DNA of 64,000 nucleotides, from contig CBDHHA010000008.1 of NCBI GenBank assembly GCA_965263255.1, positions 3,461,987 through 3,525,986 of the forward strand, given 5' to 3'. A program made the position numbers and the translations under genes. Each line of letters starts with the position of its first letter. Position 1 is the stretch's first letter. The stretch comes from Bryobacterales bacterium (GTDB lineage Bacteria > Acidobacteriota > Terriglobia > Bryobacterales > UBA6623). This document shows, piece after piece, positions 1 to 14,652 of the stretch. The notes under the pieces were generated by a model. That model was not told the origin of the DNA. It ran no database searches and saw nothing but the letters and a program-made list of their open reading frames with translations.

Positions 1-51
1 TCTCTCCGGCGCTGTGGCATACTCAGGGTGCGAGGGAAGCCGACCCTGGTC

Positions 52-1803
52 ATGCGCATTCCGCCGCTGCTGCCAGTCCTTCTGTCGGCCCTGATTCCCG
101 CATCGCTGCTCTCGCAGGGCGTTGCCAGCCCGAACGCTCGGCCCGTGAAGGCGCTGGACGCTTCGGGGCTCCCGTGGAATGCCAAGTTCGCCGATGTTGC
201 GGAGGAGGCCGGACTCGATCTTGTATTCACCTACGGCGGCAAGGACGAGAAGCGCTACATCATCGAGTCCAACGGTGCAGGCACGGCTCTCCTCGACTAC
301 GATGGCGACTCCAGGCTAGATGCCTTCTTGGTCAACGGCTCGACGCTGGAGGGTTTCGGGGACGGAGCAGCCCCAACGAACCGCCTGTACCGGAATACTG
401 GCGACGGCAGCTTCGAGGACACCACGCGGCAGAGCGGGCTCGGCCGATCCGGATGGGGCAGCGCAGTGTGCGCGGGCGACTTCGACAACGACGGCAACGT
501 AGACCTGTTTGTCGCCTATTGGGGCGAGGACGCGCTGTTTCGGAACAACGGGGACGGAACGTTCGAGGAGTCCGCGGCAGCGGCAGGAGTCGCCGGAGCC
601 GCGGATCAGTGGAGTTCCGGCTGCACCTTCGTGGACTACGACAGGGACGGGCTGCTTGACCTGCTTGTAACTCAGTACCAGCAGTTCGATCCGGAAACAG
701 CTCCCCCGCCCGGGAAGACGTCGAATTGCGAATGGAAGGGGATGCCGGTGTACTGCGGCCCGCGCGGCCTTCCGTTCGGCGGCGTGACGCTGTACCGGAA
801 CCTAGGGAACGGGTCGTTCGAGGACGCGAGCGAGACGGCGGGCGTGCGGGACGTGCGCGACTACTACGCATTCACTGCGGTAGCCGCGGACTTCGACGGG
901 GATGGCTGGCAGGACATCTACATCGCCTGCGACTCCACTCCAAGCATCCTGTTCGTCAACAACGGCGACGGGACGTTCACTGACTACGCCACGGAGACCG
1001 GTGTCGCGTTCAACGAGCACGGCTTCGAGCAGGGTGGCATGGGAGTCGGGGTCGGCGACTTCGACGGGGATGGCTGGCTGGACCTGGTGAAGACCAACTT
1101 CGCGGACGACTACCCGAATCTGTACCGGAACAACGACGGAGTGTTCTTCGAAGACATCTGCGTGCGAGCGGGGCTGGCCTCGAACCCTCAGTACGTGGGG
1201 TGGGGCGTGGACTTCGTGGACCTCGACAACGACGGCTGGCAGGATATCTTCCAAGTCAACGGTCACGTCTACCCGAAACTGGACCGCCAGCTCAAGGTGA
1301 CGGAAACGTACGTGCAGTCGAACCTCGTCTATCGCAACCTGAACGGGGAGCGATTCGAAGACGTGACGGCACTGGCCGGCGAGGCTCTGCTCCAGATCCG
1401 GTCCAGCCGAGGCGCGGCATTCGGGGACTACGACGGGGACGGCGACATCGATGTCCTGGTCATGAACATGGCGGACAGGGTCTCCCTGTTACGCAACGAC
1501 CTCCCTGGCGGGAGCAACTGGGTCCGCCTAACACTCCAAGGCACCGAATCGAACCGGGCGGCCATAGGCTCGACGGTGACCGTGCAGGCTTCCGGGAGGC
1601 GCCAGACAAGGGCCGTGGTGAGCCAGTCGAGCTACGTGTCCCACAGTGACTTGCGGGTCCACTTCGGCCTAGGCGATGCGGAGGGCGTCGACGCGATCTC
1701 CGTCCGCTGGCCGAGCGGCAAGGAAGAGGAGTTCCCGGGGGCCTCCGGCGGCCAGGGCTGGCTCCTAGTTGAGGGCTCGGGCAAGGTTGCGGCAATCCCG
1801 TGA
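52..1803 (+). CDS. CRTAC1-family secreted protein (FG-GAP/VCBS repeats + ASPIC/UnbV C-terminal domain)
   Basis: The ORF is 28..1803 with GTG at 28. ATG at 52 gives a signal-peptide-like start, MRIPPLLPVLLSALIPASLL. It has repeated Ca-binding FG-GAP/VCBS loops (DYDGDSRLD, DFDNDGNVD, DYDRDGLLD, DFDGDGWQD, DFDGDGWLD, DLDNDGWQD, DYDGDGDID). The C-terminus 'WVRLTLQGTESNRAAIGSTVTV...SYVSHSDLRVHFGLG' is typical of ASPIC/UnbV. Confidence 0.85.
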   Translation: MRIPPLLPVLLSALIPASLLSQGVASPNARPVKALDASGLPWNAKFADVAEEAGLDLVFTYGGKDEKRYIIESNGAGTALLDYDGDSRLDAFLVNGSTLEGFGDGAAPTNRLYRNTGDGSFEDTTRQSGLGRSGWGSAVCAGDFDNDGNVDLFVAYWGEDALFRNNGDGTFEESAAAAGVAGAADQWSSGCTFVDYDRDGLLDLLVTQYQQFDPETAPPPGKTSNCEWKGMPVYCGPRGLPFGGVTLYRNLGNGSFEDASETAGVRDVRDYYAFTAVAADFDGDGWQDIYIACDSTPSILFVNNGDGTFTDYATETGVAFNEHGFEQGGMGVGVGDFDGDGWLDLVKTNFADDYPNLYRNNDGVFFEDICVRAGLASNPQYVGWGVDFVDLDNDGWQDIFQVNGHVYPKLDRQLKVTETYVQSNLVYRNLNGERFEDVTALAGEALLQIRSSRGAAFGDYDGDGDIDVLVMNMADRVSLLRNDLPGGSNWVRLTLQGTESNRAAIGSTVTVQASGRRQTRAVVSQSSYVSHSDLRVHFGLGDAEGVDAISVRWPSGKEEEFPGASGGQGWLLVEGSGKVAAIP

Positions 1804-1814
1804 GTTCCGGGCGG

Positions 1815-2870
1815 ATGCGGCATATGGCGTTTGGAATTGCCCGTGCCGCGGCGATCGCGGCGTGCCTATGGCTGCCGGCAATGCTCCCGGGCCAGGGAGC
1901 GGAGGATGCCGCCGCTCTCACGGACAGCGGCCTTGAACTCGCCCAGCAAGGGCAGGTTTCGGCGGCAGCCGAACTCTGGAGGAAGGCGCTCGCTATCTCC
2001 CCGGAGTACTTCCCGGCGCTGTTCAACCTGGGCTACATGCATTTCTCGTCCGGGCAGTTGGGCGAAGCCGAGCCGCTGCTTGCACGAGCCGCTTCGGCAT
2101 CGCCGAACGACTTCAACGCGCACTACCTGCTTGGCGTCGTCCGCCAGAAGCGTGGCCGGGGCCAGGAGGCGTTGCAGGCATGGCGGCGCGCGCTGCAGAT
2201 TCAGCCCGGCCGCGTCCAGCTGATGCAGGTGATGGCGGTCGAGTACGGGAAGGGAAGGTTCCACCGCGAAGCGGCGGACGTGGCAACGCGCGCCCTGCGA
2301 CTGAGGCCGGACCAGGAGGATCTCCACTACATGGCGATCCATGCCTGCAGGGAGGCCGGGGACCTGCGGGCGGGCCTGAGGATTGCGTCAGATACAATTC
2401 GCCGATTCCCGGATTCGGCGCGAGCCAATTTCGAACACGCCTGGCACCTGCAAAAGGACGGCCGCTTCGAGGAGGCACTGCCGCTGTTGCGCAGGGCCGC
2501 GGAGCTGGACCCCGAATACGAGGAACCCCATTTCTTCTACGGGGACTGGTTGGTCAAGCAGGCCAGCTACGAGGAAGCTATCGCGCCACTGCAGAAAGCG
2601 ATCGACCTGCGAAGCGATTACATGCCCGCGCGCATTGCCCTTGCGCGCGCGCTAATGGGCCTGAGGAAATGGCCGGAAGCCGTTACGGCCTTAGAGGAGG
2701 CCGTGCGAATCGAACCCCGGCACCCCCAGCCTCACCTGATGCTGTCACAGGTCTACTTTCGACTTCGTGATCGCGAGAAGGCGCGTCAAGCGAAGGAACT
2801 CTCGCTGAAGCTGCGCAGGCAGAACCCCGCGTTCCTGGAGGCCGTGCAGTCCCGCCCGTTCCCGGAGTAG
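1815..2870 (+). CDS. TPR-repeat protein with N-terminal signal/anchor
   Basis: ORF 1800..2870. The GTG at 1800 overlaps the upstream stop, and ATG at 1815 gives MRHMAFGIARAAAIAACLWLPAML. It has multiple 34-aa TPR-like units (AxxxWxxALxxxPxxxxAxxNLG/YxxxG patterns). It probably forms an operon with the CRTAC1 gene. Confidence 0.8.
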   Translation: MRHMAFGIARAAAIAACLWLPAMLPGQGAEDAAALTDSGLELAQQGQVSAAAELWRKALAISPEYFPALFNLGYMHFSSGQLGEAEPLLARAASASPNDFNAHYLLGVVRQKRGRGQEALQAWRRALQIQPGRVQLMQVMAVEYGKGRFHREAADVATRALRLRPDQEDLHYMAIHACREAGDLRAGLRIASDTIRRFPDSARANFEHAWHLQKDGRFEEALPLLRRAAELDPEYEEPHFFYGDWLVKQASYEEAIAPLQKAIDLRSDYMPARIALARALMGLRKWPEAVTALEEAVRIEPRHPQPHLMLSQVYFRLRDREKARQAKELSLKLRRQNPAFLEAVQSRPFPE

Positions 2871-2982
2871 CGACCGAACAGCCGTCTTGGCCTATTCCGG
2901 CCAGGCGCGTACGGGTGAGAGGCGTCGCCCCGGCAGGATAGAAGCCTTGTGGCCGGCGGTCAGAGCGGGTGGGAACCGGGTC

Positions 2983-3864
2983 TCAGGCACCGCCGTGCTT
3001 CGCGGCCAGAGTGCGGAGCGTCGCGAGGTGGCGCGGCACCGCCTTGAAAGGATCCTCCTGCGCTTCGTACTCGAGTGCCATGTAGCCGCGATAGCCCGCC
3101 TTGGCGAACATCCCAACGATCCGGTCCCAGTCCGACTCCTCGTGGTTCCCCTCCTCGTCCCGGATGTGCACCTTGAACTGCGAGTTGACTGCGTACGGCA
3201 GGGCCAGCTCGATCTGATTGTACGGATCCGTTCGAAAGTTCCCGGTGTCGAGGTTGATTCCGACGTTGGGATGGTCGACGGCCGTCACGATCTGAATGAT
3301 TCTCTCGGCGCGGGCCGTAATGCCGCCGTGGTTCTCCAGCCCTAGGACCACGCCGCGATCGGCAGCATAGTCTGCTGTCCGCTTGAGGATCTCGGCGACC
3401 CAGGTCGCCGCTTCGTCTTCGGTGCTCCCTTCCGGGACTCGACCCCCAAAGACTCGGATGTGGCTGGAGCCAAGCCGATACGAAACATCGACCCAGTGGC
3501 GCAGCCAGGCAGCCTCCCTCTGCTGCTCGATGGGGCTCTTCCGGCAAAGGTCCGTCCGGATAGCGATGCTCGGGAGGTCAACGGCTGCCAAGTAGGCCTT
3601 CCTGCGGAACTCCGTAAGGAACGATTCCAGATTGTCCTGGGGAAACCAGTACACGGTCGAGTCGAGGCCGTCGACGCCGTTCTCGACCGCCATGTCGACG
3701 AGATCGAGGTAGCTGAGGGACCCGTCGCCGAGCGCCTTCCGGAACGAGTAGGCGCAGATCGCAGTCTTGAGGCGAGGGCCGTCGCCGGCAAGCTTCGGCG
3801 TTCCGGCCTGCAGTGCGGCTGGCAGCAGTGGAAGTGCGGATGTGAATTGGCGCCGTGTAACCAT
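2983..3864 (-). CDS. Sugar phosphate isomerase/epimerase (xylose isomerase-like TIM barrel, AP_endonuc_2 family), Tat-exported
   Basis: The track ORF 2983..4119 is over-extended. The internal ATG at 3864 gives a twin-arginine start, MVTRRQFTSALPLLPAALQAG. The body has the family pattern (IRVFGG..., LGLENHGGI, INLDTGNF, GYRGYMALEYE). Confidence 0.8.
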   Translation of the reverse strand: MVTRRQFTSALPLLPAALQAGTPKLAGDGPRLKTAICAYSFRKALGDGSLSYLDLVDMAVENGVDGLDSTVYWFPQDNLESFLTEFRRKAYLAAVDLPSIAIRTDLCRKSPIEQQREAAWLRHWVDVSYRLGSSHIRVFGGRVPEGSTEDEAATWVAEILKRTADYAADRGVVLGLENHGGITARAERIIQIVTAVDHPNVGINLDTGNFRTDPYNQIELALPYAVNSQFKVHIRDEEGNHEESDWDRIVGMFAKAGYRGYMALEYEAQEDPFKAVPRHLATLRTLAAKHGGA

Positions 3865-5010
3865 GGTCGAGATTATACCGGCTCGAACGTGCCCAGGAGT
3901 GATCGTGCAGCCCACGGGGGTACCAAATGCGAGTCCTGGGGCCTCAGATGACTGAACCCACGAGGCGAAGGGTCTGAGTTCTAAGGTTCGCGAGGATGCC
4001 CATGCCAAGGGACAGACGCTGGGTTCTTGATTGGGAGCATCCGGAGCCGATCGGTAAATCAATTTCGTATGCCGGGAATTCTCAGTGGGCATTGACATGC
4101 CGTTTCGGCACCACGCCACAAGGCATTAGCTCCGTCAGCACACGCTCGCAGCGCGATACACGCGGACGAGATCCAAGCGTTGTCGGCCAAAGCTAGCCTG
4201 GACTACGCTTCAGTCACCTCATTCACCGCAAGAATTCGGAGGACATGAAGCATATTCACCGTTCCCTACAACTTTTTTCACGAGCCCCCCTCGAGACTCC
4301 AAATTCCGCGCATGTGACCATTTTGGATTATCGTGTGGTACTCGGAATTGCTGCGAGATGCGGGCCAGCACCGGAGGCTGCGGCCTCACTGGCGCCCATA
4401 TTCGGGGAGCGCTGGAAGGACGGCCTCGGAGTGGCGCCAATCACGGAGCCAGATCCTGTCAGCAACGCTCAGGTAGGGGCCGGTGCGTGTCCACGTCTGC
4501 CGCGAGATTAGTGCCGTGCGGCGGTCGGGCGGTGGTCCTCTCGACGTGCTGTGGGCAAAGACCAGCCGCGGGGATACATTGGCGCTCCCCAACGGCTCCT
4601 TGTACGGGGCATTAGCCGTTCAGAACACAGGACTGGAGATACAAACTAGTCACGCACCTATCCCGGGATCGATCTAGGCCGAGGTGGAATCCGCACAAGT
4701 CCAGGTGAATCAGACAGTTGTGCGAGAGTTGCTTGCGGCAACCACCTGACCATGTTCGGAAATCAGTGACTTGGCGACAGCCCAATGTCGGGTACTTCAG
4801 CAATGCACTGGACTCAGTTGCTGGTCTACAACGAGAAGCGACCAGCTGTCGTGCAAGCCTGCCATCACAGTTACAATTGAGAATGATGTCGTTAATCACC
4901 CTGTACCATCGAACAGCCAGTTCCGAATCATGGCGTGGAGTACCGTTCGACCGCTCGAGAATCGACTTGGGACGCCATGAGAAGGACGGCTGGGTCGACT
5001 CGCGTGAGAA

Positions 5011-5437
5011 GATGGGCGAAAAGTACTCCGATTACTTGACGGGGAAGCTACCGGGCATAGACGAGTTGCACCCCAAGGGCCAACTCAGAGACCCAATCTG
5101 GAATTCTATTGCATCCTGTCAATCAGTTCTCGGCGGACATGTATTTGCCTCACCAAGGACCGACGGCAAATATTTCATTACAACCGAGGCGCGTGATATG
5201 CTCGCTAATCCTGATTCGTATACTGAGCCATTTCGTGCATGTCTCACCGCGTGGATGCTTGAACAACGAAGACTCGGTCAGTCAATTCCCAACGTCGACA
5301 AGGACATCATCCAGCAGATTCAGGATACTCACCGTTCAGAAAGGATTCAACAGCGGGCTGATCGTCTCCTCCAATTCATTGCATCCCTTTCCCAAGACTT
5401 CGAAAGGCCGTTATCATGCACCTTCCTGCGACCATGA
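5011..5437 (+). CDS. Hypothetical protein (islet gene A, partner or N-terminal part of the NDT/TIR-like protein)
   Basis: The frame is open from 4718. The first plausible ATG is at 5011 (MGEKYSDYLTG...). Its stop TGA (5435-5437) overlaps the ATG (5434-5436) of the next ORF as ATGA. The C-terminal 'CLTAWMLEQRRLGQSIPNVDKDIIQQIQ...RADRLLQFIASLSQ' reads like a helical adaptor region. I recognise no family. The start is uncertain. Confidence 0.4.
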
Positions 5438-6066
5438 TGCGAGCAATGGCGTGGTCACACTCGACAAATCCAATACACGTCACACAGCTCAGGAATCACT
5501 TGGCCGAACGTGGCTGGTTACAGTTCACGCACGACAAGGAATCCAGCGACACTAGTCTCTATGGTCAAGTACATCGTGAGTTCTTAATCACCGTAGACGG
5601 CTGGACACGACTCGAGGAAATTGAGAGTTCGGTCCCGGCACCGTCGACTCAAGCATTTGTCGCAATGTGGTTCGATACTGAGCTGGAAGACGCATGGGAC
5701 AACGGGATTCGGAAGGGAATCGAAGATGCCGGATACACCCCTGTACGTATCGATGAGAAGGAGCACAACGACAAAATCTGTGACCTAATAATTGCCGAGA
5801 TCCGCCGTTCGCGGTTCGTTGTGGCTGATTTTACTCATGGCGACACCGGAGCACGGGGAGGGGTGTACTTTGAAGCAGGCTTCGCAGGCGGTCTCGGCTT
5901 GGACGTAATTTACACCTGTCGACAAGACCAGAAGGATAAGATCCACTTTGACACGCGACAGTACAATCACATTCTATGGAGAGACAGTACAGATCTAAGG
6001 GAGAAGCTTTCAAATCGAATCTGCGCGACAATTGGAGAAGGCCCAATAGAGCACGGGCAGAGATAG
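5434..6066 (+). CDS. wHTH-like N-terminus + NDT/TIR-like (nucleoside 2-deoxyribosyltransferase-like Rossmannoid) domain protein
   Basis: The track ORF is 5416..6066, and ATG at 5434 is coupled to the upstream stop by ATGA. The N-terminal 'LRNHLAERGWLQF...ITVDGWTRLEEIE' is winged-helix-like. The C-terminal 'AFVAMWFDTELEDAWDNGIRKGIEDAGYTPVRID...ICDLIIAEIRRSRFVVADFTHGDTGARGGVYFEAGFAGGLGLDVIY' matches the beta-alpha pattern and conserved Glu motif of NDT/TIR-like domains. Confidence 0.6.
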   Translation: MMRAMAWSHSTNPIHVTQLRNHLAERGWLQFTHDKESSDTSLYGQVHREFLITVDGWTRLEEIESSVPAPSTQAFVAMWFDTELEDAWDNGIRKGIEDAGYTPVRIDEKEHNDKICDLIIAEIRRSRFVVADFTHGDTGARGGVYFEAGFAGGLGLDVIYTCRQDQKDKIHFDTRQYNHILWRDSTDLREKLSNRICATIGEGPIEHGQR

Positions 6067-6217
6067 CGTCAATTAGTTGGCAAGCGTGCAACTACGTTGC
6101 TCCCTACGTTCGTCAATGGATTGTGTTTGATCTCTCTCATACACTTGCCCAATCGAGTTGAGATTTGGAGCCGAGGCGAAGAGCGCCAAATGCTGGCAAT
6201 TTGAATGTGACCGACGA

Positions 6218-6253
6218 ACGGCCCGTCTGCCACGATCCCGGCAGACGGGCCGT
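6218..6253 (+). terminator. Perfect 14-bp GC-rich hairpin at the islet boundary (terminator-like, no U-tract)
   Basis: ACGGCCCGTCTGCC (6218-6231) pairs with GGCAGACGGGCCGT (6240-6253) across an 8-nt loop. It lies about 150 nt after the stop at 6066 and 14 nt before the kinase ATG at 6267. Confidence 0.4.
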
Positions 6254-6266
6254 ATCATGATATGGA

Positions 6267-7172
6267 ATGGACCTGTCGGGCCACCGCAAGCGCTCTGTGA
6301 TCTTCTGGATCGCGCTGGGCATCTGCTTGGTAGGGCTGGCCGTCGCGTTGAATGTCGGTTGGCTGGTCGCCAACTGGCGCAGCGAGGTCGTCCTAGGCCT
6401 TGGAATCGTGGCCGGGCTCCTTCTCATCGCAGGGCTTGTCCTGAACACGGTGTTCCTGGTTCGGGAAATCCGTCGGAACGAAAAGCACGACGAATTCATC
6501 AATGCCGTCACGCACGAGTTGAAGACGCCTGTCGCGTCGATCAAGCTCTATCTCGAAACGCTGCGGTCGAGGGATGTCGAGGAGAATCGCCGGCAGGAGT
6601 TCTTCGACACCATGCTGGCCGACATGGCTCGCCTGGAGGGGACGATCGAGCAAGTTCTCCGCGCCGGCGCCCTAGGCTCCCGGCGCAGGTCTCTGCGCAC
6701 GCAGCTCGACCTCCGGGAACTGGTCGGGGACTGCGTCGACCGGCTCCGGCGCAGCCATGACCTGCCCGAGGGCGTTCTCCGCTTTCGCAATCGGATTCCC
6801 GAGGGCGAGCCCGCTCTCGTGATGGGCAATGGCGAGGAGTTGCGAGCGGCGGTGTCGAATCTGATCGACAATGCCGTCAAGTATTCCGGCGACCACGCCC
6901 AGGTCTGGATCGAGGTCGCCAGGCGCGGGGCAGAGACGGTCTCGGTCAGCGTCCGAGACAACGGCATCGGAATCGCTCCTGACGAGCTCAAGCGAGTGTT
7001 CCGGCGCTTCTACAGGACGCCCGGAACGATGCGGTCAAAGGGCACGGGGCTCGGTCTCTACATCGTGCGGACCGTCGCAAGCAAGCACGGCGGGAGAGTT
7101 TTCGGGCACAGCGAGGGGAAGGGCCGCGGAAGCACGTTCACCATCGAGCTGCCGCTGCTGGCGACGGCATGA
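6267..7172 (+). CDS. Sensor histidine kinase (two TM helices, minimal extracytoplasmic loop)
   Basis: HisKA H-box 'FINAVTHELKTPVASI'. HATPase_c N-box 'NLIDNAVKYSG', 'DNGIGI' and 'GTGLGLYIV'. There are two N-terminal hydrophobic helices separated by only a few residues. Confidence 0.9.
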   Translation: MDLSGHRKRSVIFWIALGICLVGLAVALNVGWLVANWRSEVVLGLGIVAGLLLIAGLVLNTVFLVREIRRNEKHDEFINAVTHELKTPVASIKLYLETLRSRDVEENRRQEFFDTMLADMARLEGTIEQVLRAGALGSRRRSLRTQLDLRELVGDCVDRLRRSHDLPEGVLRFRNRIPEGEPALVMGNGEELRAAVSNLIDNAVKYSGDHAQVWIEVARRGAETVSVSVRDNGIGIAPDELKRVFRRFYRTPGTMRSKGTGLGLYIVRTVASKHGGRVFGHSEGKGRGSTFTIELPLLATA

Positions 7173-7930
7173 AGCGGGTGCTGATCGTCGAGGACGAAAC
7201 CCACCTCGCCAAAGGTCTCCAGTTCAACCTAGAAGCGGAGGGCTTCGCTACGCGGATCGCGGAGACGGGCGAGGAGGCCTTGCGGACGGTCCAGGACAGC
7301 CCGGCCTTCGACGCCCTGCTGGTAGACGTCATGCTGCCTGGCATGGATGGCTTCGAGGTCGTGCGCAAACTCCGATCACAGGGATGCTACGTGCCTGTGA
7401 TGATGCTCACGGCCAGGAAGAGACCCGGCGACATCGTCGAGGGACTGTCGGCCGGGGCGGACGACTACGTCCCAAAGCCGTTCGAGCTGGCGGTCTTGCT
7501 GGCCCGTATCCGCGGCCTTTTAAGGCGCCATCGCTGGAGCTCGAGGGAGCAGGACCCTCCGGTACCCGACACCTACGAGTTCAACGGCCGGACGGTGGAT
7601 TTTTCCAAGCAGCAGCTGCTGGTCGGCGGCGAGGTCCGTGACCTGACCCTGATGGAAGCCAAGCTCTTGCACCACCTGGTCGCGAACGAGGGTCGGAACG
7701 TGTCCCGCAAGAGCCTTCTGGAAGACGTGTGGGGAGTCAGGGAGGACACCGACACCCGGGCGATCGATAACTTCATCGTACGGCTGCGCCGATCGATTGA
7801 GCCGGATCCCGGCAAGCCCCGGCACCTCCTCACCGTTCGTGGCGTCGGATACCGGTTCGTCGCCGAGCCCGAGCCCGGGCTCAGTCGTCGTCTGTCGGGA
7901 GCGGCAGCGAGGCGGTTTCGCCGTCCGTGA
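7169..7930 (+). CDS. OmpR/PhoB-family response regulator
   Basis: Its start overlaps the kinase stop as ATGA. The receiver domain has 'VLIVEDE...DALLVDVMLPGMDG...MLTA...YVPKPF'. The winged-helix output domain has 'LTLMEAKLLHHL...VRLRRSIE...TVRGVGYRF'. Confidence 0.9.
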   Translation: MKRVLIVEDETHLAKGLQFNLEAEGFATRIAETGEEALRTVQDSPAFDALLVDVMLPGMDGFEVVRKLRSQGCYVPVMMLTARKRPGDIVEGLSAGADDYVPKPFELAVLLARIRGLLRRHRWSSREQDPPVPDTYEFNGRTVDFSKQQLLVGGEVRDLTLMEAKLLHHLVANEGRNVSRKSLLEDVWGVREDTDTRAIDNFIVRLRRSIEPDPGKPRHLLTVRGVGYRFVAEPEPGLSRRLSGAAARRFRRP

Positions 7931-8714
7931 TCCCAACCGCCCAGCGGAACGCCTCCAGCCACATCTGCTGGATCCCCGGATCGTCCCAGACGGAGTTGCG
8001 GTGACCCAGGACAGTTGAGAAGACCCGTCCCTTGCCGAAATCGCGGACCCAGGCCATGGCGAAATCCCTGTCCGCCCGCTGGACGCCGTCCTTCGTCAGG
8101 TCCACGCTCGCGGGATCCAAGCTGAGCAGCACGCGCACCTTGTCCCGGGAATAACGGTTCAGCTGGTAGATCTCGTCGGTGATCTCGAACGATGCCGGGA
8201 AGTGCCGGCTGATCGGGTGTGTCCGGTCGTCGACACGGACGCGGACCTTCTGGTGCCAAGGATGGTTGACGAAGGCCCCTCCAACCATGTCAATGTACTC
8301 GGGCCAGGTCTCGCGGAACGAGTCCGTGCCGCTGTGAGCGACTAGGATCGCCTTGCCGTCCTCCTTGACGAACCGCATCAGATCCGCCTTCTGCTCGGCA
8401 CCGAGCTCCAAGTCACCCTGCGTGTAGAACATCACCGCATCGAAGTAATCGAGGTTCTTGCGGTTGCCCCGCAGCTTCTGCTTGGTGACCAACTCCATGT
8501 CTGTCCGGAACCGCACGTCGAACAGTCCCGAACTCTCGCCGATCTTGGCCATGGTGAACATGGCGTGCGACACCGAGTCGTGGGCGAAGAAGTCGGATCC
8601 TCCTAGGAACAGCAGGTGCTTCCTTTCGTCTTGCTGTGCACTAGCAACCGTGGAGCTGGCGACAAGCAGGGCAGCGGCGACAAACGCAGTCTGGGCAATC
8701 TTCCCGAGTCTCAT
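7881..8714 (-). CDS. ThuA-domain (trehalose-utilisation-like) secreted protein
   Basis: It has a signal peptide, MRLGKIAQTAFVAAALLVASSTVASA. The ThuA-like pattern is 'FDAVMFYTQGDL...ILVAHSGTDSF...WPEY..MVGG.F..HPW...V.V.D..HPI....P..F.I.DE.Y...FAMAWVRDFGKGRVFSTVLGH'. Confidence 0.8.
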   Translation of the reverse strand: MRLGKIAQTAFVAAALLVASSTVASAQQDERKHLLFLGGSDFFAHDSVSHAMFTMAKIGESSGLFDVRFRTDMELVTKQKLRGNRKNLDYFDAVMFYTQGDLELGAEQKADLMRFVKEDGKAILVAHSGTDSFRETWPEYIDMVGGAFVNHPWHQKVRVRVDDRTHPISRHFPASFEITDEIYQLNRYSRDKVRVLLSLDPASVDLTKDGVQRADRDFAMAWVRDFGKGRVFSTVLGHRNSVWDDPGIQQMWLEAFRWAVGITDGETASLPLPTDDD

Positions 8715-8739
8715 GGGAACAAGTCTCGCACAGCCGGCC

Positions 8740-9486
8740 CTACAGCCGGTTGATCAGCGTGGCGACGTAGGCAGCGCCAAACCCGTTGTCGATATTGACG
8801 ACCGAGACGTTGCTCGCGCAGGAATTCAGCATTCCGAGCAGGGCTGATAGGCCGTTGAAGCTCGCCCCGTACCCGACGCTTGTTGGAACGGCGATCACCG
8901 GCACGGAGACCAAGCCTCCCAGAGCACTGGGCAGCGCCCCCTCCATGCCGGCGCAGCAGATCGCGACGCGCGCCTGCTGGATGCGCTCCATTCTCGAAAG
9001 GAGGCGATGGATGCCGGCGACCCCCACGTCGTAAATGGCGTCAACCTCGTTGCCCATCACCTCGGCCGTGACCCGCGCCTCTTCGGCGACCGGAATGTCA
9101 CTGGTGCCCGCGCACACCACCGCGATCCGACCCTTCCCCAGGGTCTTGGAATCCCGCTGCACGCGGATCGCGCCGGAACGACTGAAGTACTCGGCTGCCT
9201 CGTCGATGTCTCGAACCGCTTCGAACATCGCCTCGCTCGCCCGCGTGACGAGTAGGTTTGGCGACCGCTCGAGGAGCTTAGATGCGATCGCGCCCACCTC
9301 GTCCGCGGTTTTTCCCTGCCCCAGAATCACTTCGGGCATCCCGTGCCGCAACGCACGGTGGTGGTCCACCTTGGCGAATCCGAGATCCTCGAACGGCATG
9401 TGCCGCATTTCGCCGACGGCGTGATCGATGTCGCACCGCCCCTGCTGCACTTCTTCGAGGAGCGCGCGAAGCCGGGCCTCGTTCAT
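8740..9486 (-). CDS. larB: Nickel-pincer cofactor biosynthesis protein LarB (AIR-carboxylase-like NaAD carboxylase/hydrolase)
   Basis: There is near-motif-level agreement with LarB along the protein: '[28 protein letters not shown]', '[18 protein letters not shown]', '[12 protein letters not shown]', '[61 protein letters not shown]'. Confidence 0.85.
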
Positions 9487-10481
9487 GGCCTGGCTTTCGT
9501 CGGGAAGTAGGTGCCGATTTCCACGACGGGATCGGGGCCCATGCCGGGTGGCGTGTCAATCACCTGCACAACCTCGCGCTCCGGGACGGAAACGATCCAG
9601 ATCTGATCCTCGTCCTGGACTCCCGCGAACGCGTACATCCCGTCCTTGGAGAGGGAGATGGAGAGAGGAGCGCCGCCCAGCGGTATCCGGGCCACCTCCT
9701 TGCCGCTCGCGATGTCGGCGATCCCGACCGCGTGGCCGGTCTGGAGCGAATACACCAGAAGTTCCTCGCCGGGCGTCGCCACGATTCTGTTCACACCGTC
9801 GCCGGTGTCAATCGAGCCAATCCTCTGCTTCGAAGCCGTGTCTATGATGTCGATCCGGCCCTCATCCCGGCAGGTCACCCAGAGCTGCTTGCCGTCACGC
9901 GAAAGCAGGCTTCCCTGCGGTCCCTTGCCGACCCCGATCAGCTGGAGCTCACCGGTTACCGTGTGCACGGCTCCCACGGTCGCGCTCGCAGTGTTGGACA
10001 CGTAGCCCCAGATGCCGTCCCGGTCGAAGGTGACCATGTGCGGGTCCGTGCCGCCGTTGTCGAAGTCCTTGATCACGGCGCGGGCATCCAGGTCGACGAG
10101 CACGATCCGGTCCGGGTTCTCGGACGTGACGAGCGCCCGGCTCGACCCCGGATCGAGCGAAATGCCGTGCGGCCGGTGGAACTTGCCCATCGGCAGCACG
10201 CCGACACGCGTTTGCGCGTGGACGTCGATGATCGAGACCGTGTTGCCGCCAGGCCCGTCATAGTCCATCCAAAGGACGCCGTTGTCGGACACGTAGGCGA
10301 ATCTGCCGTCCCTGGATAGAACGACTTCGTGAGGGGTCTCGCCGATCGGCACTCCTCCCACCCTGGTCCCGGAAGACGCGTAGAATCCGACCGAATTGTT
10401 CTTCTTCTCGACAACGAGCAGGTCCGCCCGCTCTGCGGCGCCGAGAATTCCCGCAAGCCCGACGAGCAGCGCTATCAGCAA
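9483..10481 (-). CDS. YncE/YVTN-like beta-propeller repeat protein (secreted)
   Basis: The track ORF 9483..10766 would overlap the divergent ssb gene. The TTG at 10481 gives a hydrophobic N-terminus, [17 protein letters not shown], but the start is uncertain. It has repeated 'P.g...s.DG...yVs....' blades ([78 protein letters not shown]). Its stop overlaps the larB start as ATGA. Confidence 0.7.
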
Positions 10482-10563
10482 GTTAGGCTTCCGAGCAACA
10501 TCCCCGCATCCCCCCTGGCTCCCGCCTTGAACCGGGCGGGCTATTGATTGTACCGTGGATGCT

Positions 10564-11093
10564 ATGGCTAGCAGTCTGAACAAGGTCATGCTGATCGGCA
10601 ACCTAGGCAAGGACGCCGAGACCCGGCACACGCCCAGCGGGACAGCCGTCACCAACTTCAGCTCTGGCCACGACATACCGCACGAAGGATCAGAATTCGG
10701 GCGAGTGGAACGAGAGGACGGACTGGCACGACGTGGTCCTGTGGAAGGGTGAGAGGGTTGCACCATACCTCAAGAAGGGGAAGAAGGTCTTTGTCGAAGG
10801 CCGGCTGCAGACCCGCTCCTGGGAGGACCAGCAGGGCCAGAAGCGCTACCGAACGGAAGTCATCTGCGATTCGTTCGGCTTGATGCTGCTGAGGAGGCCG
10901 CGAGGGCGGTTCCGATTACAGTGGCGGACAGGGAGGGTTCCGGTCGAGTGGCGGAGGCGGCGGTTCCGGACAGGATTCGGATTACTCGCCCCCGCCCGAG
11001 GGAGGAAGCGGGCAACCGTCCGCTTCGGGCCAGTCCGAGGGGACCAGCGGCGGCGCAGCAGGGTCGTACGACGACGACGATATTCCGTTCTAG
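10564..11093 (+). pseudogene. ssb: Single-stranded DNA-binding protein gene interrupted by two 1-nt frame disruptions
   Basis: Frame 1 reads MASSLNKVMLIGNLGKDAETRHTPSGTAVTNFS. Frame 2, from about 10664, reads LATTYRTKDQNSGEWNERTDWHDVVLWKGERVAPYLKKGKKVFVEGRLQTRSWEDQQGQKRYRTEVICDSFGLMLL. Frame 3, from about 10893, reads GGREGGSDYSGG...SYDDDDIPF*. Joined, these give a canonical OB-fold SSB with a Gly-rich linker and the acidic DDDIPF tip. Confidence 0.85.
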
Positions 11094-11112
11094 GACGAGC
11101 CGGGATCGCGGC

Positions 11113-13029
<1,917 letters not shown>

Positions 13030-13065
13030 TTCGTAGCGCCTTCTTCCGCAGAATCCCGCTATCCG

Positions 13066-14547
13066 TTAAGACGCAATCCGGGTCGATTTAGATACAAAGC
13101 CGGCATCGGAGCCGCCCGGTTCGTCCAAGGCAAGGATGCGCCGCGTGGCCGCGGTCGGCGACAGTCCGTGCGCCGGGCCGAACTGACGGACCCAGACGAT
13201 CTGCTCGCGCGAGGCCGGTGTGTCGGACGCAGTGACGACGGGCCATCCCGCCCGTCTCCACGCGCTGACACGGGCGCTGTGGAACAGTTCCTTGACCTTC
13301 CGCGGCGCCCCGTGCCCGGCCGGGCGGTAACGATCGCCTGCCCGCCAGCTCCGCACGCGAAGCAGTCTCGGGACGCAATCCCAGTCGAGAAGTGCAGATT
13401 CCGCTTCATTGTACAGCGCTTGCGCTTCCGGGTGGGTTAGTAGGCGTGCGCGAAGTTCCCCGCCGTCGCCGCCAGGCACAACAGCATGACCGGGCACGGG
13501 CAGCGGAAGATCGAATGCGCCCGGGGGCTCTCCACCTCGGCGCGCGAAGCGGATGATGTCGAACGAGCGCTCGACGCGCAAGCCAGGCAGGTCTAGCGAA
13601 CCGCTGCCGGCGGGTGCGGCAACGAGAGCGCGGACTGCTTCGATATGCCCGAAGCTCGCACTTCCGCCGTCTAGGTACTGGGTTCTCACGATCGCGTCGA
13701 TAAGTCGCCGTTGCTCCGCAGGCAGCAGCTCTCGCACGGACTCGACCTGCAGGAGGACGGCGCCTTGCTCTTCCCGGACGCAGCGATTCATCAGTTCGCT
13801 CACCCGGCCCCGCCAGAAGCGCTCCTCCTCAAGGGCCCAGTCGGCGGTGTTGGCGAGGACTGACTCGATGTTCGGGTTCCAGTCACGGGCTAGCGCCGGC
13901 AGCAGCGAGTGACGGATCCGGTTACGGGCGAAGCTGGGGTCGGCATTGCTCGAATCCTCCCGCCAGTCCAGCCCCGACGCTCGCAGGTAGGCTAGGATCT
14001 CGTCGCGCGAGACGTCGAGCATCGGGCGGACAATGCCCGGATCCCGGACGGAATGGATCGCGCTGAGGCCGTGGCCGCCACTGCCCCTCAGCAAGCGGAA
14101 GAGTACGGTCTCGGCTTGGTCGGAGCGCGTGTGAGCGGTCGCGACGACGTTGACGGCCCCGGCCTCGACCAGTTCGCCGAAGTACCGGTAGCGGCTCCGA
14201 CGGCCATGCTCTTCGATATTGCCCCCTGCCAGGCGGGCCGCCGTGGCGATGTCGTCGCGACGGACGAACACGGGGACCGCAAGACTTGCCGCGAGGCTGC
14301 GGACAAGCTCCTCGTCGAGATCGGCTTCGGGTCCGCGGAGCGAGTGGTTGAGGTGGATCGCTGCGAGCGGGCAATCCGGGTACAGCTGCTTCAAGGCATG
14401 CAGGAGGGCGACCGAGTCGGCCCCGCCCGACACGGCGACGCCGATCCGCTGACAGCCTTCGAACATGCCGTCGCGGTCAACCCGCCTGGCAATCTTCGCC
14501 AGCACAGCTTCAATGTAGGCGATAAGGGTGGCGGAATCTCCGCCCAT
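13066..14547 (-). CDS. tilS: tRNA(Ile)-lysidine synthase TilS
   Basis: PP-loop 'VAVSGGADSVALLH' and 'ATAHTRSDQAETVLFRLLRGSG'. It sits immediately upstream of ftsH, the classic tilS-ftsH arrangement. Confidence 0.9.
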   Translation of the reverse strand: MGGDSATLIAYIEAVLAKIARRVDRDGMFEGCQRIGVAVSGGADSVALLHALKQLYPDCPLAAIHLNHSLRGPEADLDEELVRSLAASLAVPVFVRRDDIATAARLAGGNIEEHGRRSRYRYFGELVEAGAVNVVATAHTRSDQAETVLFRLLRGSGGHGLSAIHSVRDPGIVRPMLDVSRDEILAYLRASGLDWREDSSNADPSFARNRIRHSLLPALARDWNPNIESVLANTADWALEEERFWRGRVSELMNRCVREEQGAVLLQVESVRELLPAEQRRLIDAIVRTQYLDGGSASFGHIEAVRALVAAPAGSGSLDLPGLRVERSFDIIRFARRGGEPPGAFDLPLPVPGHAVVPGGDGGELRARLLTHPEAQALYNEAESALLDWDCVPRLLRVRSWRAGDRYRPAGHGAPRKVKELFHSARVSAWRRAGWPVVTASDTPASREQIVWVRQFGPAHGLSPTAATRRILALDEPGGSDAGFVSKSTRIAS

Positions 14548-14652
14548 CCGGGCTGAGAACTGGGCACGAGCCGCTGAGGACCCGTTTCGGAGTCTCGGCG
14601 CCGCCAGAGGGTCTCCCGAGCGTGGCCTGGATTCGCCCTAGCGTTTACGCTG

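What the first reader, a model, noticed from the sequence alone, without database searches (positions are those of the whole stretch)
5011..6066. Candidate orphan NDT/TIR-like nucleotide-targeting (defence-type) cassette, ATGA-coupled to an unknown partner
The 5434-6066 ORF has two parts.

- **N-terminus:** a winged-helix-like segment (LRNHLAERGWLQF...ITVDGWTRLEEIE).
- **C-terminus:** a Rossmannoid domain reading AFVAMWF...GYTPVRID...IIAEIRRSRFVVADFT...GGVYFEAGFAGGLGLDVIY.

The C-terminal order is beta-strand, helix, 'VVAD-x-T', then '(Y/F)FE-x-G-x-A' with a conserved Glu. That order characterises nucleoside 2-deoxyribosyltransferase-like and TIR-like domains. Such domains act on NAD+ or nucleotides in several bacterial conflict systems.

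The upstream ORF ends in a helical 'RADRLLQFIASLSQ' segment. Its stop overlaps the downstream ATG as ATGA. Two readings are possible:

- a translationally coupled two-gene module;
- one longer gene split by a frame error, because the +1 frame is open from 5362.

No other known defence genes are nearby, so this is an orphan module in a foreign-composition islet.
Basis: partly seen in the sequence, partly recalled or inferred. Interest (0 to 1): 0.7.

Follow-up and report, generated by a model that had tools for sequence, protein, structure and literature searches.

The report
Frameshifted NDT/TIR-like defence-type gene
The two overlapping ORFs are one horizontally acquired gene broken by a single-base frameshift; it belongs to a large, uncharacterised family of single-chain sensor plus NDT/TIR-like enzyme proteins that often sit next to restriction-modification genes and probably act in phage defence.

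Summary
The sequence features are real. A low-GC islet (about 51% against 65%) holds two ORFs joined by ATGA, and the second ORF carries a winged helix and a Rossmannoid NDT/TIR-like domain.

It is not a two-gene cassette.
- More than 7,900 homologues exist, and most are single proteins of about 315-335 aa.
- A family profile is covered at positions 8-114 by ORF1 and 121-319 by ORF2.
- Inserting one base anywhere in the 5362-5437 overlap restores one ORF. With the true start at ATG 4883, the product is 394 aa.
- The ATGA junction is a by-product: the ancestral codons ...ACC ATG ATG... are now read as CCA TGA.
- The frameshift is identical in an independent 227x assembly, so it is probably real. 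The gene is then a recent pseudogene or, less likely, a tolerated split.

The family is patchy across phyla and occurs on plasmids.
- Its immediate neighbours are enriched for type I, III and ISP restriction-modification genes and UvrD-like helicases.
- The N-terminal module is also found fused to canonical TIR and PF10137 domains.

The likeliest function is a self-contained abortive-infection NADase or nucleotide N-glycosidase. This is inferred, not shown.

The class is known, but I found no description of this family. The copy in the window is broken. Interest is moderate.

The parts
4700..6150 (.). Low-GC islet (about 0.51-0.57 GC against 0.63-0.68 in the flanks) that carries the gene
   Evidence: Composition profile. 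The islet is 100% identical in an independent assembly, L086.
4883..5437 (+). 5' segment of the single gene, in the ORF1 frame. It holds an N-terminal extension (about 4883-5090, LYH..GWVD..YLTG.LPGI). It then holds the family's N-domain (about 5093-5420: PIW, SPRTDGKYFI, W..EQRRLG..IP, RADRLLQFI). It ends at TGA 5435-5437.
   Evidence: Aligns to P0002 residues 7-114 (E 5e-16) and to profile positions 8-114. The extension aligns with P0165, P0199, P0164, P0182 and P0201. The AlphaFold model has pLDDT 80.6, with a four-strand beta-meander and three helices.
5362..5437 (+). Stretch where both frames are open, containing the single-base frameshift (equivalent to a 1-nt deletion). The most likely site is near 5420-5428, but it is not resolvable.
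   Evidence: An N inserted at most positions from about 5385 to 5430 restores one ORF scoring 392-394 bits. The 62 nt between the Ile codon (5378-5380) and GCA 5443 equal 21 codons minus one base, and P0165 has 21 residues there (read directly). No X XXY YYZ slippery heptamer is present.
5434..5439 (+). ATGATG. These are ancestral Met-Met codons of the linker (..PATMMRAMAWS..). In the shifted upstream frame they read CCA TGA, which produces the apparent ATGA stop/start overlap.
   Evidence: Sequence. Homologues have Met at this point..ATAMAWSES (P0027)..TFMAWAWSES (P0003), MCTAMAWSES (P0005).
5434..6066 (+). 3' segment of the gene, in the ORF2 frame: winged helix plus NDT/TIR-like domain. Stop codon at 6064-6066.
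   Evidence: 55% identical to P0002 residues 125-320 (E 5e-81). Covers profile positions 121-319 at 310 bits. Identical to P0001, as called in NCBI and ENA.
5443..5640 (+). MarR-like winged helix-turn-helix (AWSHS..LRNHLAERGWLQF..ITVDGWTRLEEIE)
   Evidence: Foldseek hits to BpsR (6pcp/6pco) and MftR (8ylg). A weak profile hit to a MarR regulator, 9qdr.
5653..6040 (+). NDT/TIR-class Rossmannoid domain (AFVAMWF, RID, KICDLIIAEIRRSRFVVADFT, ARGGVYFEAGFA, HFDTRQYNHILW)
   Evidence: PF05014 at 19.6 bits, below the threshold of 28.8. PADLOC PDLC00733 'Effector TIR' at E 5.6e-8. Foldseek: BcmB 4jen_B (TMt 0.74, rmsd 3.2), NDTs, DNPH1, SPARTA TIR, AbTir, SARM1 and SpbK.
5827..5829 (+). GAT, the invariant Asp of the VADFT motif at the end of strand 3
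   Evidence: Invariant D245 in alignment A1. Codon read.
5872..5874 (+). GAA, the invariant Glu of GGVY(Y/F)EAGFA and the predicted catalytic residue
   Evidence: Invariant E260 in A1 and E75 in A4. It aligns with the Glu of NVIFELGY in the PF10137 domain of P0145, but that alignment is weak (E 0.052).

Best explanation
Window 4883-6066 is one horizontally acquired gene. It encodes a protein of about 394 aa from a large, uncharacterised family.

**Architecture**
- An N-terminal module made of a short extension plus a beta-meander/helical 'C-x-IW / SPRAGG' domain with no recognisable solved fold.
- A MarR-like winged helix.
- A C-terminal NDT/TIR-class (TIR-DrHyd-SLOG clade) Rossmannoid domain with an invariant Asp (VADFT) and Glu (GGVYYEAG).

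**State of this copy.** In this genome a single-base frameshift in the poorly conserved linker between the N-module and the winged helix breaks the gene into two overlapping ORFs. The copy is most likely a recently inactivated pseudogene. At best it is expressed as two chains by accidental stop/start overlap.

**Proposed mechanism for the intact family (inferred).** The protein is a self-contained abortive-infection sensor-effector.
- The N-module and winged helix keep the enzyme domain off and recognise an infection cue. The cue may be a nucleic acid or a phage protein, and it may be linked to restriction activity, since the gene is often embedded in R-M operons.
- Activation, probably by oligomerisation as in other TIR/NDT effectors, lets the Glu-dependent N-glycosidase domain cleave NAD+ or a (deoxy)nucleotide. 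This depletes an essential metabolite and arrests the infected cell.
For: **Single gene (shown)**
- More than 7,900 homologues exist, most of them 315-335 aa.
- P0002 residues 7-114 align with ORF1 and residues 125-320 with ORF2.
- The family profile is covered at 8-114 and 121-319 in two frames.
- Any 1-nt insertion in the overlap restores one ORF at about 393 bits.
- Other split copies are broken at other places. L001 has a T deleted after RGDRLLQ, and L009, P0137, P0142 and P0149 are broken elsewhere.

**Frameshift probably real**
- The islet is 100% identical in L086, a different sample assembled at 227x. L086 has an intact ssb where the window's ssb is broken.
- No homopolymer longer than 3 lies in the overlap.

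**Fold**
- The model of P0002 has pLDDT 83.9.
- It gives local matches to TIR and NDT-class enzymes and to MarR regulators.

**Defence context (shown for homologues)**
- 24 of 75 loci have R-M or UvrD-like genes within 10 kb, and 14 of 75 have one within 300 bp.
- Representatives are confirmed as N6_N4_Mtase, ResIII, UvrD, Type_ISP_C, HsdM, HsdS and HsdR.
- The commonest Pfam families among immediate neighbours are UvrD, N6_N4_Mtase, ResIII, HsdR, DUF499/DUF1156, AAA_21, HEPN_Swt1 and HerA.
- Genes at least 6.5 kb away are housekeeping.
- Locus L083 sits among Eco57I-like, PLD-SNF2, RmuC, TIR_2 and integrase genes.
- Locus L002 lies next to ApeA_NTD1.
- Copies occur on plasmids and none in phages.

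**Modularity**
- The same N-module plus winged helix is fused to TIR_2 (P0240, P0205), to PF10137 (P0145) and to NDT plus HARE-HTH (P0242).

**Precedent**
- The NDT-like retron-Ec86 effector depletes NAD+ (PMC13276650).
- DrHyd and TIR domains act as NADase effectors (PMC9503650).
Against: - No biochemical or phage-challenge data exist for any member that I could find.
- The substrate is unknown.
- The window protein fails Pfam's PF05014 threshold, and TIR_2 is hit only weakly in 7 of 52 homologues.
- Sequence-profile searches of the PDB find no NDT or TIR chain.
- About two thirds of homologue loci show no R-M gene among my clustered families. Some, such as L084, have purely housekeeping neighbours.
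- The window locus itself has no defence neighbours.
- The window assembly has indel problems elsewhere: ssb carries two 1-nt insertions. A systematic sequencing error shared by both assemblies is therefore not excluded.
Confidence: 0.62

Rival explanations
1. Assembly artefact. The organism's gene is intact, about 394 aa and functional. The missing base is a sequencing or consensus error reproduced in both assemblies, for example a systematic long-read error.
For: - The collection holds many frameshift-truncated fragments of this family on long contigs (P0137, P0142, P0149) and on a 2x-coverage contig (L001).
- The window's essential ssb carries two 1-nt insertions relative to L086.
- All catalytic and structural motifs of the gene are intact.
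Against: - The frameshift is identical in L086, a different sample at 227x coverage. L086 differs from the window at 29 other positions and has a clean ssb.
- The overlap has no homopolymer longer than 3.
Confidence: 0.25
2. Functional two-chain system. The split is tolerated or selected. ORF1 (the N-module) and ORF2 (winged helix plus NDT-like domain) are made separately by ATGA-coupled reinitiation and assemble non-covalently.
For: - The break lies exactly in the variable inter-domain linker.
- ORF1's stop overlaps an in-frame ATG of ORF2.
- Both halves keep the family's conserved residues.
- The split is the same in two assemblies.
- Short wHTH-NDT-only homologues without the N-module exist, such as P0005 in L002.
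Against: - The overwhelming majority of homologues are single chains.
- The ATGATG is the ancestral Met-Met, so the overlap is a by-product of the frameshift.
- Other split copies break at different sites.
- No conserved two-gene version was found.
- The restored protein deviates at 8 of 99 highly conserved columns, against a mean of 2.6 in homologues. That is compatible with relaxed constraint.
Confidence: 0.1
3. Non-enzymatic regulator. The winged helix binds DNA, and the NDT/TIR-like domain only senses a nucleotide ligand, as some SLOG and TIR-like domains do. The protein would control transcription of neighbouring (R-M) genes.
For: - The middle domain is MarR-like.
- The TIR-DrHyd-SLOG clade includes non-catalytic nucleotide sensors (PMC9503650).
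- The gene frequently sits inside R-M operons.
Against: - Acidic residues at the catalytic positions are invariant (VADFT Asp, YYEAG Glu).
- The domain is swapped for canonical TIR_2 and PF10137 domains, which act as enzymes in known systems.
- There is no constant neighbour that it could regulate.
Confidence: 0.1
4. Housekeeping nucleoside 2-deoxyribosyltransferase or dNMP N-hydrolase for nucleotide salvage. PGAP names the plasmid homologues this way.
For: - Weak PF05014 similarity.
- RefSeq product names on Leptospira and Bacillus mycoides plasmids.
Against: - The matches are below Pfam's threshold.
- The gene is patchy across phyla, sits on plasmids and in a low-GC islet, and has no salvage genes as conserved neighbours.
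- It has extra sensor and wHTH domains, and its effector domain is swapped with TIR domains.
Confidence: 0.03

Closest known systems
Retron type II NDT-like effectors (retron-Ec86/Eco1 effector; RcaT of Retron-Sen2)
   Same: Both combine an NDT-like Rossmannoid domain with a DNA-binding domain in one toxic effector used for abortive infection. The Ec86 effector depletes NAD+ (PMC13276650; PMC8632793).
   Different: - No reverse transcriptase or ncRNA partner appears among the neighbours.
- No PADLOC retron-effector model is hit.
- The domain order is reversed, with the wHTH before the NDT-like domain.
- There is an extra N-terminal module of unknown fold.
Single-chain bacterial TIR NADase defence proteins (SpbK; the TIR of SPARTA TIR-APAZ; AbTir)
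   Same: - The C-terminal domain superposes locally on these TIR domains.
- An N-terminal sensor is fused to a TIR-class effector.
- Sister architectures of this family carry a genuine TIR_2 domain on the same N-module (P0240, P0205).
   Different: - The window protein's domain scores as NDT-like rather than TIR.
- It has no Argonaute/APAZ partner.
- The trigger and the oligomeric state are unknown.
NDT-superfamily N-glycosidases (nucleoside 2-deoxyribosyltransferase PF05014, DNPH1/Rcl, CMP N-glycosidase BcmB/MilB)
   Same: - The best global domain superposition is to BcmB 4jen_B (TMt 0.74, rmsd 3.2 A).
- NDTs and DNPH1 also match.
- The motif order is the same: strand, then Asp, then a loop, then Glu at a helix N-terminus.
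   Different: - The sequence match is below the family threshold.
- The protein is multidomain and lies in mobile, R-M-linked contexts, not biosynthetic or salvage ones.
Restriction-linked accessory genes embedded in R-M operons (for example PrrC in a type Ic hsd locus; named from my own knowledge, not tested here)
   Same: In 5 homologue loci the gene lies among hsdM, hsdS and hsdR. In 7-8 loci it lies between a type III-like mod gene and a UvrD-like helicase, with gaps of only a few bases.
   Different: - The effector chemistry is different: an N-glycosidase-like domain rather than an anticodon nuclease.
- The association is facultative, in about one third of loci.
- It is absent in the window.
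CBASS/Pycsar TIR-type effectors (PADLOC PDLC00733; PF10137 TIR-like)
   Same: - There is a local profile match at E 5.6e-8 for the window protein, reaching 1.8e-12 in homologues.
- One homologue (P0145) carries PF10137 in place of the NDT-like domain.
   Different: - The match covers only about 93 of 388 profile positions.
- There is no cyclase or nucleotide-sensor (SAVED/STING/CARF) partner or domain.

Membership tests
Pfam PF05014 Nuc_deoxyrib_tr (nucleoside 2-deoxyribosyltransferase) | Profile match at or above the curated gathering score (28.8 bits) | tested here: not met
   Window ORF2 scores 19.6 bits. All 52 aligned homologues hit the model, but with E-values no better than 1.6e-5, and P0002 scores 22.9 bits. 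Only a few relatives pass, such as P0242 at 30.6 bits and precomputed PF05014 hits on 3 of 120.
Pfam PF05014 / NDT superfamily | Rossmannoid fold superposable on solved NDT-class enzymes | tested here: met
   Foldseek of the P0002 model gives 4jen_B (TMt 0.74, rmsd 3.2), 7o62_C, 8pqr_A, 6qai, 2a0k and 8os9_D. This was tested on a 55%-identical homologue, not on the window protein itself.
NDT superfamily / TIR | Catalytic Glu correctly placed in the active site | not testable with these tools
TIR domain (PF13676 / PF01582) | Profile match above threshold | tested here: not met
   There is no TIR hit for the window protein at E <= 1. TIR_2 is hit weakly in 7 of 52 homologues, best E 0.0038. Fold-level similarity to TIR domains is present.
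Retron type II (RT + msr/msd + NDT effector) | Adjacent reverse transcriptase and ncRNA; effector matches retron NDT models | tested here: not met
   No RT family appears among recurrent neighbours. PADLOC gives only PDLC00733 for 52 of 52 members. Rfam finds nothing in window 3900-6500.
Thoeris (ThsB TIR + ThsA-type effector) | A conserved partner effector gene next to the TIR-like gene | tested here: not met
   There is no universal neighbour. The best neighbour cluster occurs in 15 of 80 loci and is a DNA methylase.
CBASS/Pycsar TIR effector (PADLOC PDLC00733) | Full-length match plus a cyclase gene and a signal-sensing domain | tested here: not met
   The match is local only (profile 271-363 of 388). 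No cyclase or SAVED/STING families occur in the protein or among its recurrent neighbours.
Translationally coupled two-gene module (toxin-antitoxin-like cassette) | Two separately conserved genes whose products are distinct proteins in relatives | tested here: not met
   Relatives encode both halves in one ORF. A single inserted base restores the ORF.
Programmed -1 ribosomal frameshift gene | A slippery heptamer in phase, and conservation of the two-frame arrangement in relatives | tested here: not met
   No X XXY YYZ site lies in 5362-5437. Relatives are single-frame.
Defence-island / restriction-linked gene (operational class) | Neighbourhood enriched in known defence genes relative to background | tested here: met
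   This holds for the family. Immediate neighbours are dominated by R-M, helicase and other defence families, while the distal control from the same loci is housekeeping. It does not hold for the window copy, which is an orphan. Gene calls were crude (longest ORFs), so the counts are approximate.

The most novel reading that the evidence does not exclude
The N-module (extension plus 'C-x-IW/SPRAGG' domain, with no detectable solved fold) together with the winged helix may be a new, portable infection-sensor cassette. It would couple restriction-modification activity to metabolite depletion by interchangeable NDT-like, TIR or PF10137 enzymes, forming an R-M-linked second line of abortive defence. 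The cue could be, for example, sensing DNA ends or unmodified or foreign DNA produced during restriction. Under this reading the split form in this genome may still work as a two-chain version.
Probability: 0.15. Interest if true: 0.7.

Novelty: new variant of a known kind. Interest (0 to 1): 0.4.

Why it matters
**For the scan.** An apparent 'ATGA-coupled two-gene cassette' can be a single frameshifted gene. The test is whether relatives encode both halves in one frame.

**For biology.**
- The family is large. It has more than 7,900 clusters at 90% identity, and relatives in at least 577 stretches of species-representative genomes across many phyla.
- It is absent from PADLOC v2 as its own model, is named 'nucleoside 2-deoxyribosyltransferase' or 'hypothetical' in RefSeq, and was not described in any paper I could find.
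- Three features make it a good candidate single-gene defence system: it is embedded in type I/III/ISP R-M operons, its sensor module has an unrecognised fold, and its effector domain is swapped with bona fide TIR domains.
- It could also be a route to asking how R-M systems are backed up by metabolite-depleting effectors.
- Cultured hosts exist for testing: Pelagibacterium halotolerans, Alloalcanivorax balearicus, Iodidimonas muriae, Bacillus mycoides and Leptospira interrogans.

The window's own copy is broken and is of little interest in itself.

Tried and rejected
- **Programmed frameshift.** Rejected. There is no slippery heptamer, and relatives are single-frame.
- **Natural split at the linker.** I examined the short homologues.
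  - L001 is a 1-nt deletion on a 2x-coverage contig, and its shifted frame matches P0003 exactly.
  - L002 lacks the N-module altogether.
  - Other fragments break at scattered sites.
- **Sequence searches of the PDB.** The protein, the full profile and a C-domain-only profile found nothing relevant.
- **hhalign of the C-domain profile.** Against the PF10137 domain of P0145 it gave E 0.052 with the Glu aligned. Against the TIR_2 domain of P0240 it gave E 0.67. Both are too weak to use.
- **Insertion scars.** Repeat search around the islet found only short chance-level repeats and one hairpin. No tRNA lies nearby.
- **Promoters, terminators and RNAs.** The promoter/terminator scan was at background. 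Rfam found nothing.
- **The roughly 1 kb upstream gap (3865-4882).** No Pfam hit for any ORF there.
- **Islet-free relative.** Attempts to delimit the insertion failed. P0124 is not on record, and the L087 contig ends before the site.
- **Artefacts.** The antisense-ORF 'neighbour' cluster (L016_7 and others) and L027_14 were recognised as artefacts of my longest-ORF gene calling in high-GC DNA.
- **Literature.** Searches for the family found only class-level background.
Full report
**1. What is in the sequence**

Between about 4750 and 6250 the GC content drops to 0.51-0.52, against 0.63-0.68 on both sides. Two + strand ORFs lie there.
- ORF1 runs 4718-5437, with codons starting at positions congruent to 2 mod 3.
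- ORF2 runs 5416/5434-6066, with codons starting at positions congruent to 1 mod 3.
- The sequence at 5434-5439 is ATGATG. ORF1's TGA (5435-5437) therefore overlaps two in-frame ATGs of ORF2.
- ORF2's frame is open back to 5362.

**2. One gene, not two**

ORF2 has more than 7,900 homologues at E <= 1e-3. Almost all of the best 120 are 315-335 aa, about 115 residues longer than ORF2.

The extra residues correspond to ORF1.
- P0002 (324 aa) aligns through residues 7-114 with ORF1 (36% identity, E 5e-16) and through residues 125-320 with ORF2 (55% identity, E 5e-81).
- An HMM built from 52 full-length homologues (A1) matches ORF1's frame over profile positions 8-114. It matches ORF2's frame over positions 121-319. 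Only six poorly conserved linker positions are left uncovered.
- An N inserted at most positions from about 5385 to 5430 restores one uninterrupted ORF scoring 392-394 bits. The score is flat, so the exact site cannot be placed.

Counting bases supports a one-base deletion. Between the Ile codon of RADRLLQFI (5378-5380) and GCA 5443 there are 62 nt, which is 21 codons minus one base. The close relative P0165 has exactly 21 residues there.

The residues S-x-T in ORF1's frame (PLSCT, against FSLTD in P0165) suggest that the shift lies near 5420-5428. In that case ORF1 runs only about four codons out of frame. It then meets TGA inside the ancestral Met-Met codons (..PATMMRAMAWS..). Homologues commonly have Met at this point. 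The 'ATGA coupling' is therefore a by-product of the frameshift.

No X XXY YYZ slippery site is present, and relatives are single-frame, so programmed frameshifting is not supported.

**3. True extent**

A phmmer search with ORF1's C-terminal 141 residues against 1.84 billion representatives found 208 relatives. Several of them (P0164, P0165, P0180, P0182, P0201) also align with the residues upstream of the family's C-x-IW motif.

An alignment shows a shared N-terminal extension, (M)LYH..AP.G..F....L....GWVDD..KIG....YLSG.IPGI. It starts in the window at ATG 4883. The gene is therefore 4883-6066, and the repaired product is 394 aa, like P0165 (391 aa) and P0199 (403 aa).

**4. Is the frameshift real?**

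Evidence that it is real:
- The exact ORF2 protein (P0001) is also encoded on a second contig from another sample, ERZ25072258, at 227x coverage (L086).
- Window 1-16000 and L086 are 99.82% identical. All 29 differences lie at 9582-13209, and the islet is base-for-base identical.
- L086 has an intact 175-aa ssb, whereas the window's ssb carries two 1-nt insertions. L086 is the cleaner assembly and still has the frameshift.
- The overlap contains no homopolymer longer than 3.

Evidence for caution:
- The collection holds many frameshift fragments of this family. L001 is on a 2x contig, and P0137, P0142 and P0149 are on Mb-scale contigs.
- A systematic error common to both assemblies cannot be excluded.

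I put about 0.7 on a real mutation and about 0.25 on an artefact.

The repaired protein keeps every catalytic and core motif. It deviates at 8 of 99 columns that are at least 90% conserved, against a mean of 2.6 (sd 2.2, max 9) in 103 homologues. The deviations include the N-module's Cys (C-x-IW becomes DPIW). This is at most weak evidence of relaxed constraint. The comparison set is also not the protein's own subfamily.

**5. What the protein is**

The AlphaFold model of P0002, built with A1, has pLDDT 83.9 and three parts.
- Residues 1-103: a beta-meander plus helices.
- Residues 117-180: a winged helix.
- Residues 186-312: a Rossmannoid alpha/beta domain.

Foldseek against the PDB gave these matches.
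- *C-domain, TIR domains.* It superposes locally on SPARTA TIR-APAZ (8i88_C, rmsd 3.6 over 137 columns), AbTir (7uxu), SARM1 and SpbK.
- *C-domain, NDT-class N-glycosidases.* It also superposes on BcmB (4jen_B, TMt 0.74, rmsd 3.2), NDTs (6qai, 2a0k, 7o62, 8pqr) and DNPH1 (8os9).
- *Middle domain.* It matches the MarR-type regulators BpsR and MftR.

Sequence profiles agree, but weakly.
- PF05014 scores 19.6 bits against a cut-off of 28.8.
- PF05014 is hit by all 52 homologues but with E-values no better than 1.6e-5, and TIR_2 is hit by 7 of 52.
- PADLOC 'Effector TIR' (PDLC00733) matches at E 5.6e-8 for the window and in 52 of 52 homologues, over only about a quarter of that model.

The family's invariant residues include FVAMWF (strand 1), the Asp of VADFT (strand 3), the Glu of GGVYYEAGFA (helix N-terminus) and HFDTRQYNHI-W. 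The window retains the Asp (5827-5829) and the Glu (5872-5874).

This is the motif order of the TIR-DrHyd(NDT)-SLOG clade. Members of that clade act as NADases, ADP-ribosyl cyclases or nucleotide N-glycosidases in conflict systems (PMC9503650).

The N-module of the window protein, modelled at pLDDT 80.6, has no match in the PDB. The best Foldseek E-value is 0.49.

**6. Context of relatives**

A scan of species-representative genomes found at least 577 coding stretches. They fall in Latescibacterota, Alpha- and Gammaproteobacteria, Acidobacteriota (Vicinamibacterales, Bryobacterales), Dehalococcoidia, Binatia, Thermodesulfobacteriota, Gemmatimonadota and others. The distribution is patchy.

I clustered crude ORF calls from 80 loci. 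There is no universal neighbour, so the gene is self-contained. There are, however, recurrent restriction-modification neighbours, and I confirmed representatives by Pfam and PADLOC.
- A type III-like N6_N4 methylase of about 1,000 aa occurs in 15 loci. It is often directly upstream, with gaps of -13 to +3 nt.
- A UvrD-like helicase lies directly downstream in 8 loci.
- A ResIII protein occurs in 7 loci.
- Type ISP enzymes occur in 5 loci.
- hsdM, hsdS and hsdR occur in 5 loci, with the gene between hsdS and hsdR.

Overall, 24 of 75 loci have such a gene within 10 kb, and 14 of 75 have one within 300 bp.

The commonest Pfam families among 110 immediate neighbours are the following.
- UvrD (7 members)
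- N6_N4_Mtase (6)
- ResIII (5)
- Polbeta (3)
- HsdR, DUF559, DUF499/DUF1156, AAA_21, HEPN_Swt1 and HerA (2 each)

In a control set of 110 genes at least 6.5 kb away in the same loci, no family recurs more than twice. The list is housekeeping: CoA-transferase, fumarase, HSP90, ArgG, SufBD, Obg, SmpB and RNase PH.

Individual loci agree.
- P0002 follows an Eco57I-like enzyme and a PLD-SNF2 helicase with a 4-nt overlap. RmuC, a TIR_2 protein and integrase fragments lie downstream.
- P0064 precedes an MmeI/Eco57I-like enzyme.
- P0005 lies next to an ApeA_NTD1 protein.
- P0039 has only housekeeping neighbours.

Relatives occur on 22 plasmids, where PGAP calls them 'nucleoside 2-deoxyribosyltransferase' or 'hypothetical protein'. 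In Leptospira interrogans p4 the gene lies between a SEFIR protein and a large SAM methyltransferase. No relative occurs in 50,697 phage records.

**7. Modularity**

The N-module plus winged helix is also found joined to other effector domains.
- A canonical TIR_2 domain: P0240 (E 4.4e-19) and P0205 (TIR_2/SEFIR).
- A PF10137 TIR-like domain: P0145. Its sequence departs from the family exactly at the GFVA boundary.
- NDT plus HARE-HTH: P0242.

Conversely, the wHTH-NDT core occurs with other N-termini. Bacillus mycoides has a CPVC..CENC Zn-ribbon-like N-terminus, and Leptospira has another. A fixed module with swappable partners is the usual layout of defence sensor-effectors.

**8. Mechanism (inferred)**

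I propose that the intact protein is a single-chain abortive-infection effector.
- The N-module and winged helix sense a cue and hold the enzyme domain off.
- Activation lets the Glu-dependent N-glycosidase cleave NAD+ or a (deoxy)nucleotide.

What is shown: the single-gene structure, the fold class, the conserved acidic residues, the R-M and defence neighbourhood, and the domain swapping. What is inferred: catalysis, the substrate, the trigger, oligomerisation and the phenotype.

The nearest mechanistic precedents are two.
- The NDT-like retron-Ec86 effector, which depletes NAD+ (PMC13276650), and RcaT, which combines an NDT domain with a DNA-binding domain (PMC8632793).
- Single-chain TIR NADases such as SpbK, which is a fold hit.

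Membership of each of the following was tested and is not met: retron effectors, Thoeris, CBASS effectors and Pfam NDT.

**9. The window copy**

It is an orphan. No defence genes lie within 10 kb, and no integrase, tRNA or flanking repeats were found. It sits in a low-GC islet and is broken by a frameshift. The most likely state is a recent pseudogene. A tolerated two-chain form (confidence 0.1) or an intact gene masked by an assembly error (0.25) remain possible.

**10. Verdict**

The kind of system, a TIR/NDT-class effector fused to a sensor, is well known. This particular family, its N-module and its R-M embedding are, as far as I could find, undescribed. Interest is moderate for the family and low for this copy.

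Noticed in passing
window 10555-11100 (+), compared with L086 15150-15677: The ssb gene is broken in the window by two 1-nt insertions (about 10664 and 10896). In the 99.8%-identical assembly L086 it is an intact 175-aa ORF ending DDDIPF. Of the 29 differences between the two assemblies, 24 cluster in 10299-10995. This looks like a low-quality or recombinant patch of the window assembly.
   Followed up: yes
window 3865-4882: About 1 kb of intermediate GC (0.58-0.60) lies between the AP_endonuc_2-family gene and the islet gene with no recognisable gene. No ORF there has a Pfam hit, there is no Rfam hit, and the other assembly has no gene call there.
   Followed up: partly
window 6218-6253: A perfect 14-bp inverted repeat (ACGGCCCGTCTGCC / GGCAGACGGGCCGT) with an 8-nt loop lies in the gap before the histidine-kinase gene. 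It has no T-run, so it is not a canonical terminator.
   Followed up: no
P0240, P0205, P0145, P0242 (homologues from other sources): The same N-module plus winged helix is fused to a canonical TIR_2 domain (with a long C-terminal tail in P0240), to TIR_2/SEFIR, to PF10137, or to NDT plus HARE-HTH. The effector domain is swapped at a fixed boundary.
   Followed up: partly
L013, L017, L029, L030, L036, L049, L074, L078 (for example L049 3000-13100): A recurrent four-gene block occurs in Alphaproteobacteria, Alloalcanivorax and Nitrosomonas-type genomes: ResIII-like, type III-like methylase, this gene, then a UvrD-like helicase with an N-terminal extra domain. Gene junctions are only a few bases, which suggests one operon and possibly a composite system.
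   Followed up: partly
L083 579-16957: A dense defence islet surrounds P0002. It holds an Eco57I-like enzyme, a PLD-SNF2 helicase, the family member, RmuC, a DUF6884 protein, a 524-aa TIR_2 protein, CoiA_N, integrase fragments and an AAA-ATPase/PDDEXK_9 protein.
   Followed up: no
L088 5123-9935 (Leptospira interrogans plasmid p4): The family member lies between a 480-aa SEFIR-domain protein and a 772-aa class I SAM methyltransferase, on a phage-like plasmid that has a baseplate J gene nearby.
   Followed up: no
L089 6488-7441 (Bacillus mycoides p400): The Bacillus version replaces the C-x-IW N-domain with a CPVC...CENC zinc-ribbon-like N-terminus and keeps the wHTH and NDT-like core. It is conserved on 16 B. 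mycoides megaplasmids.
   Followed up: partly
L068 8352-9983 and L062 8244-9962: The HsdS proteins directly upstream of the family member carry an N-terminal Polbeta nucleotidyltransferase domain fused to the specificity subunit.
   Followed up: no
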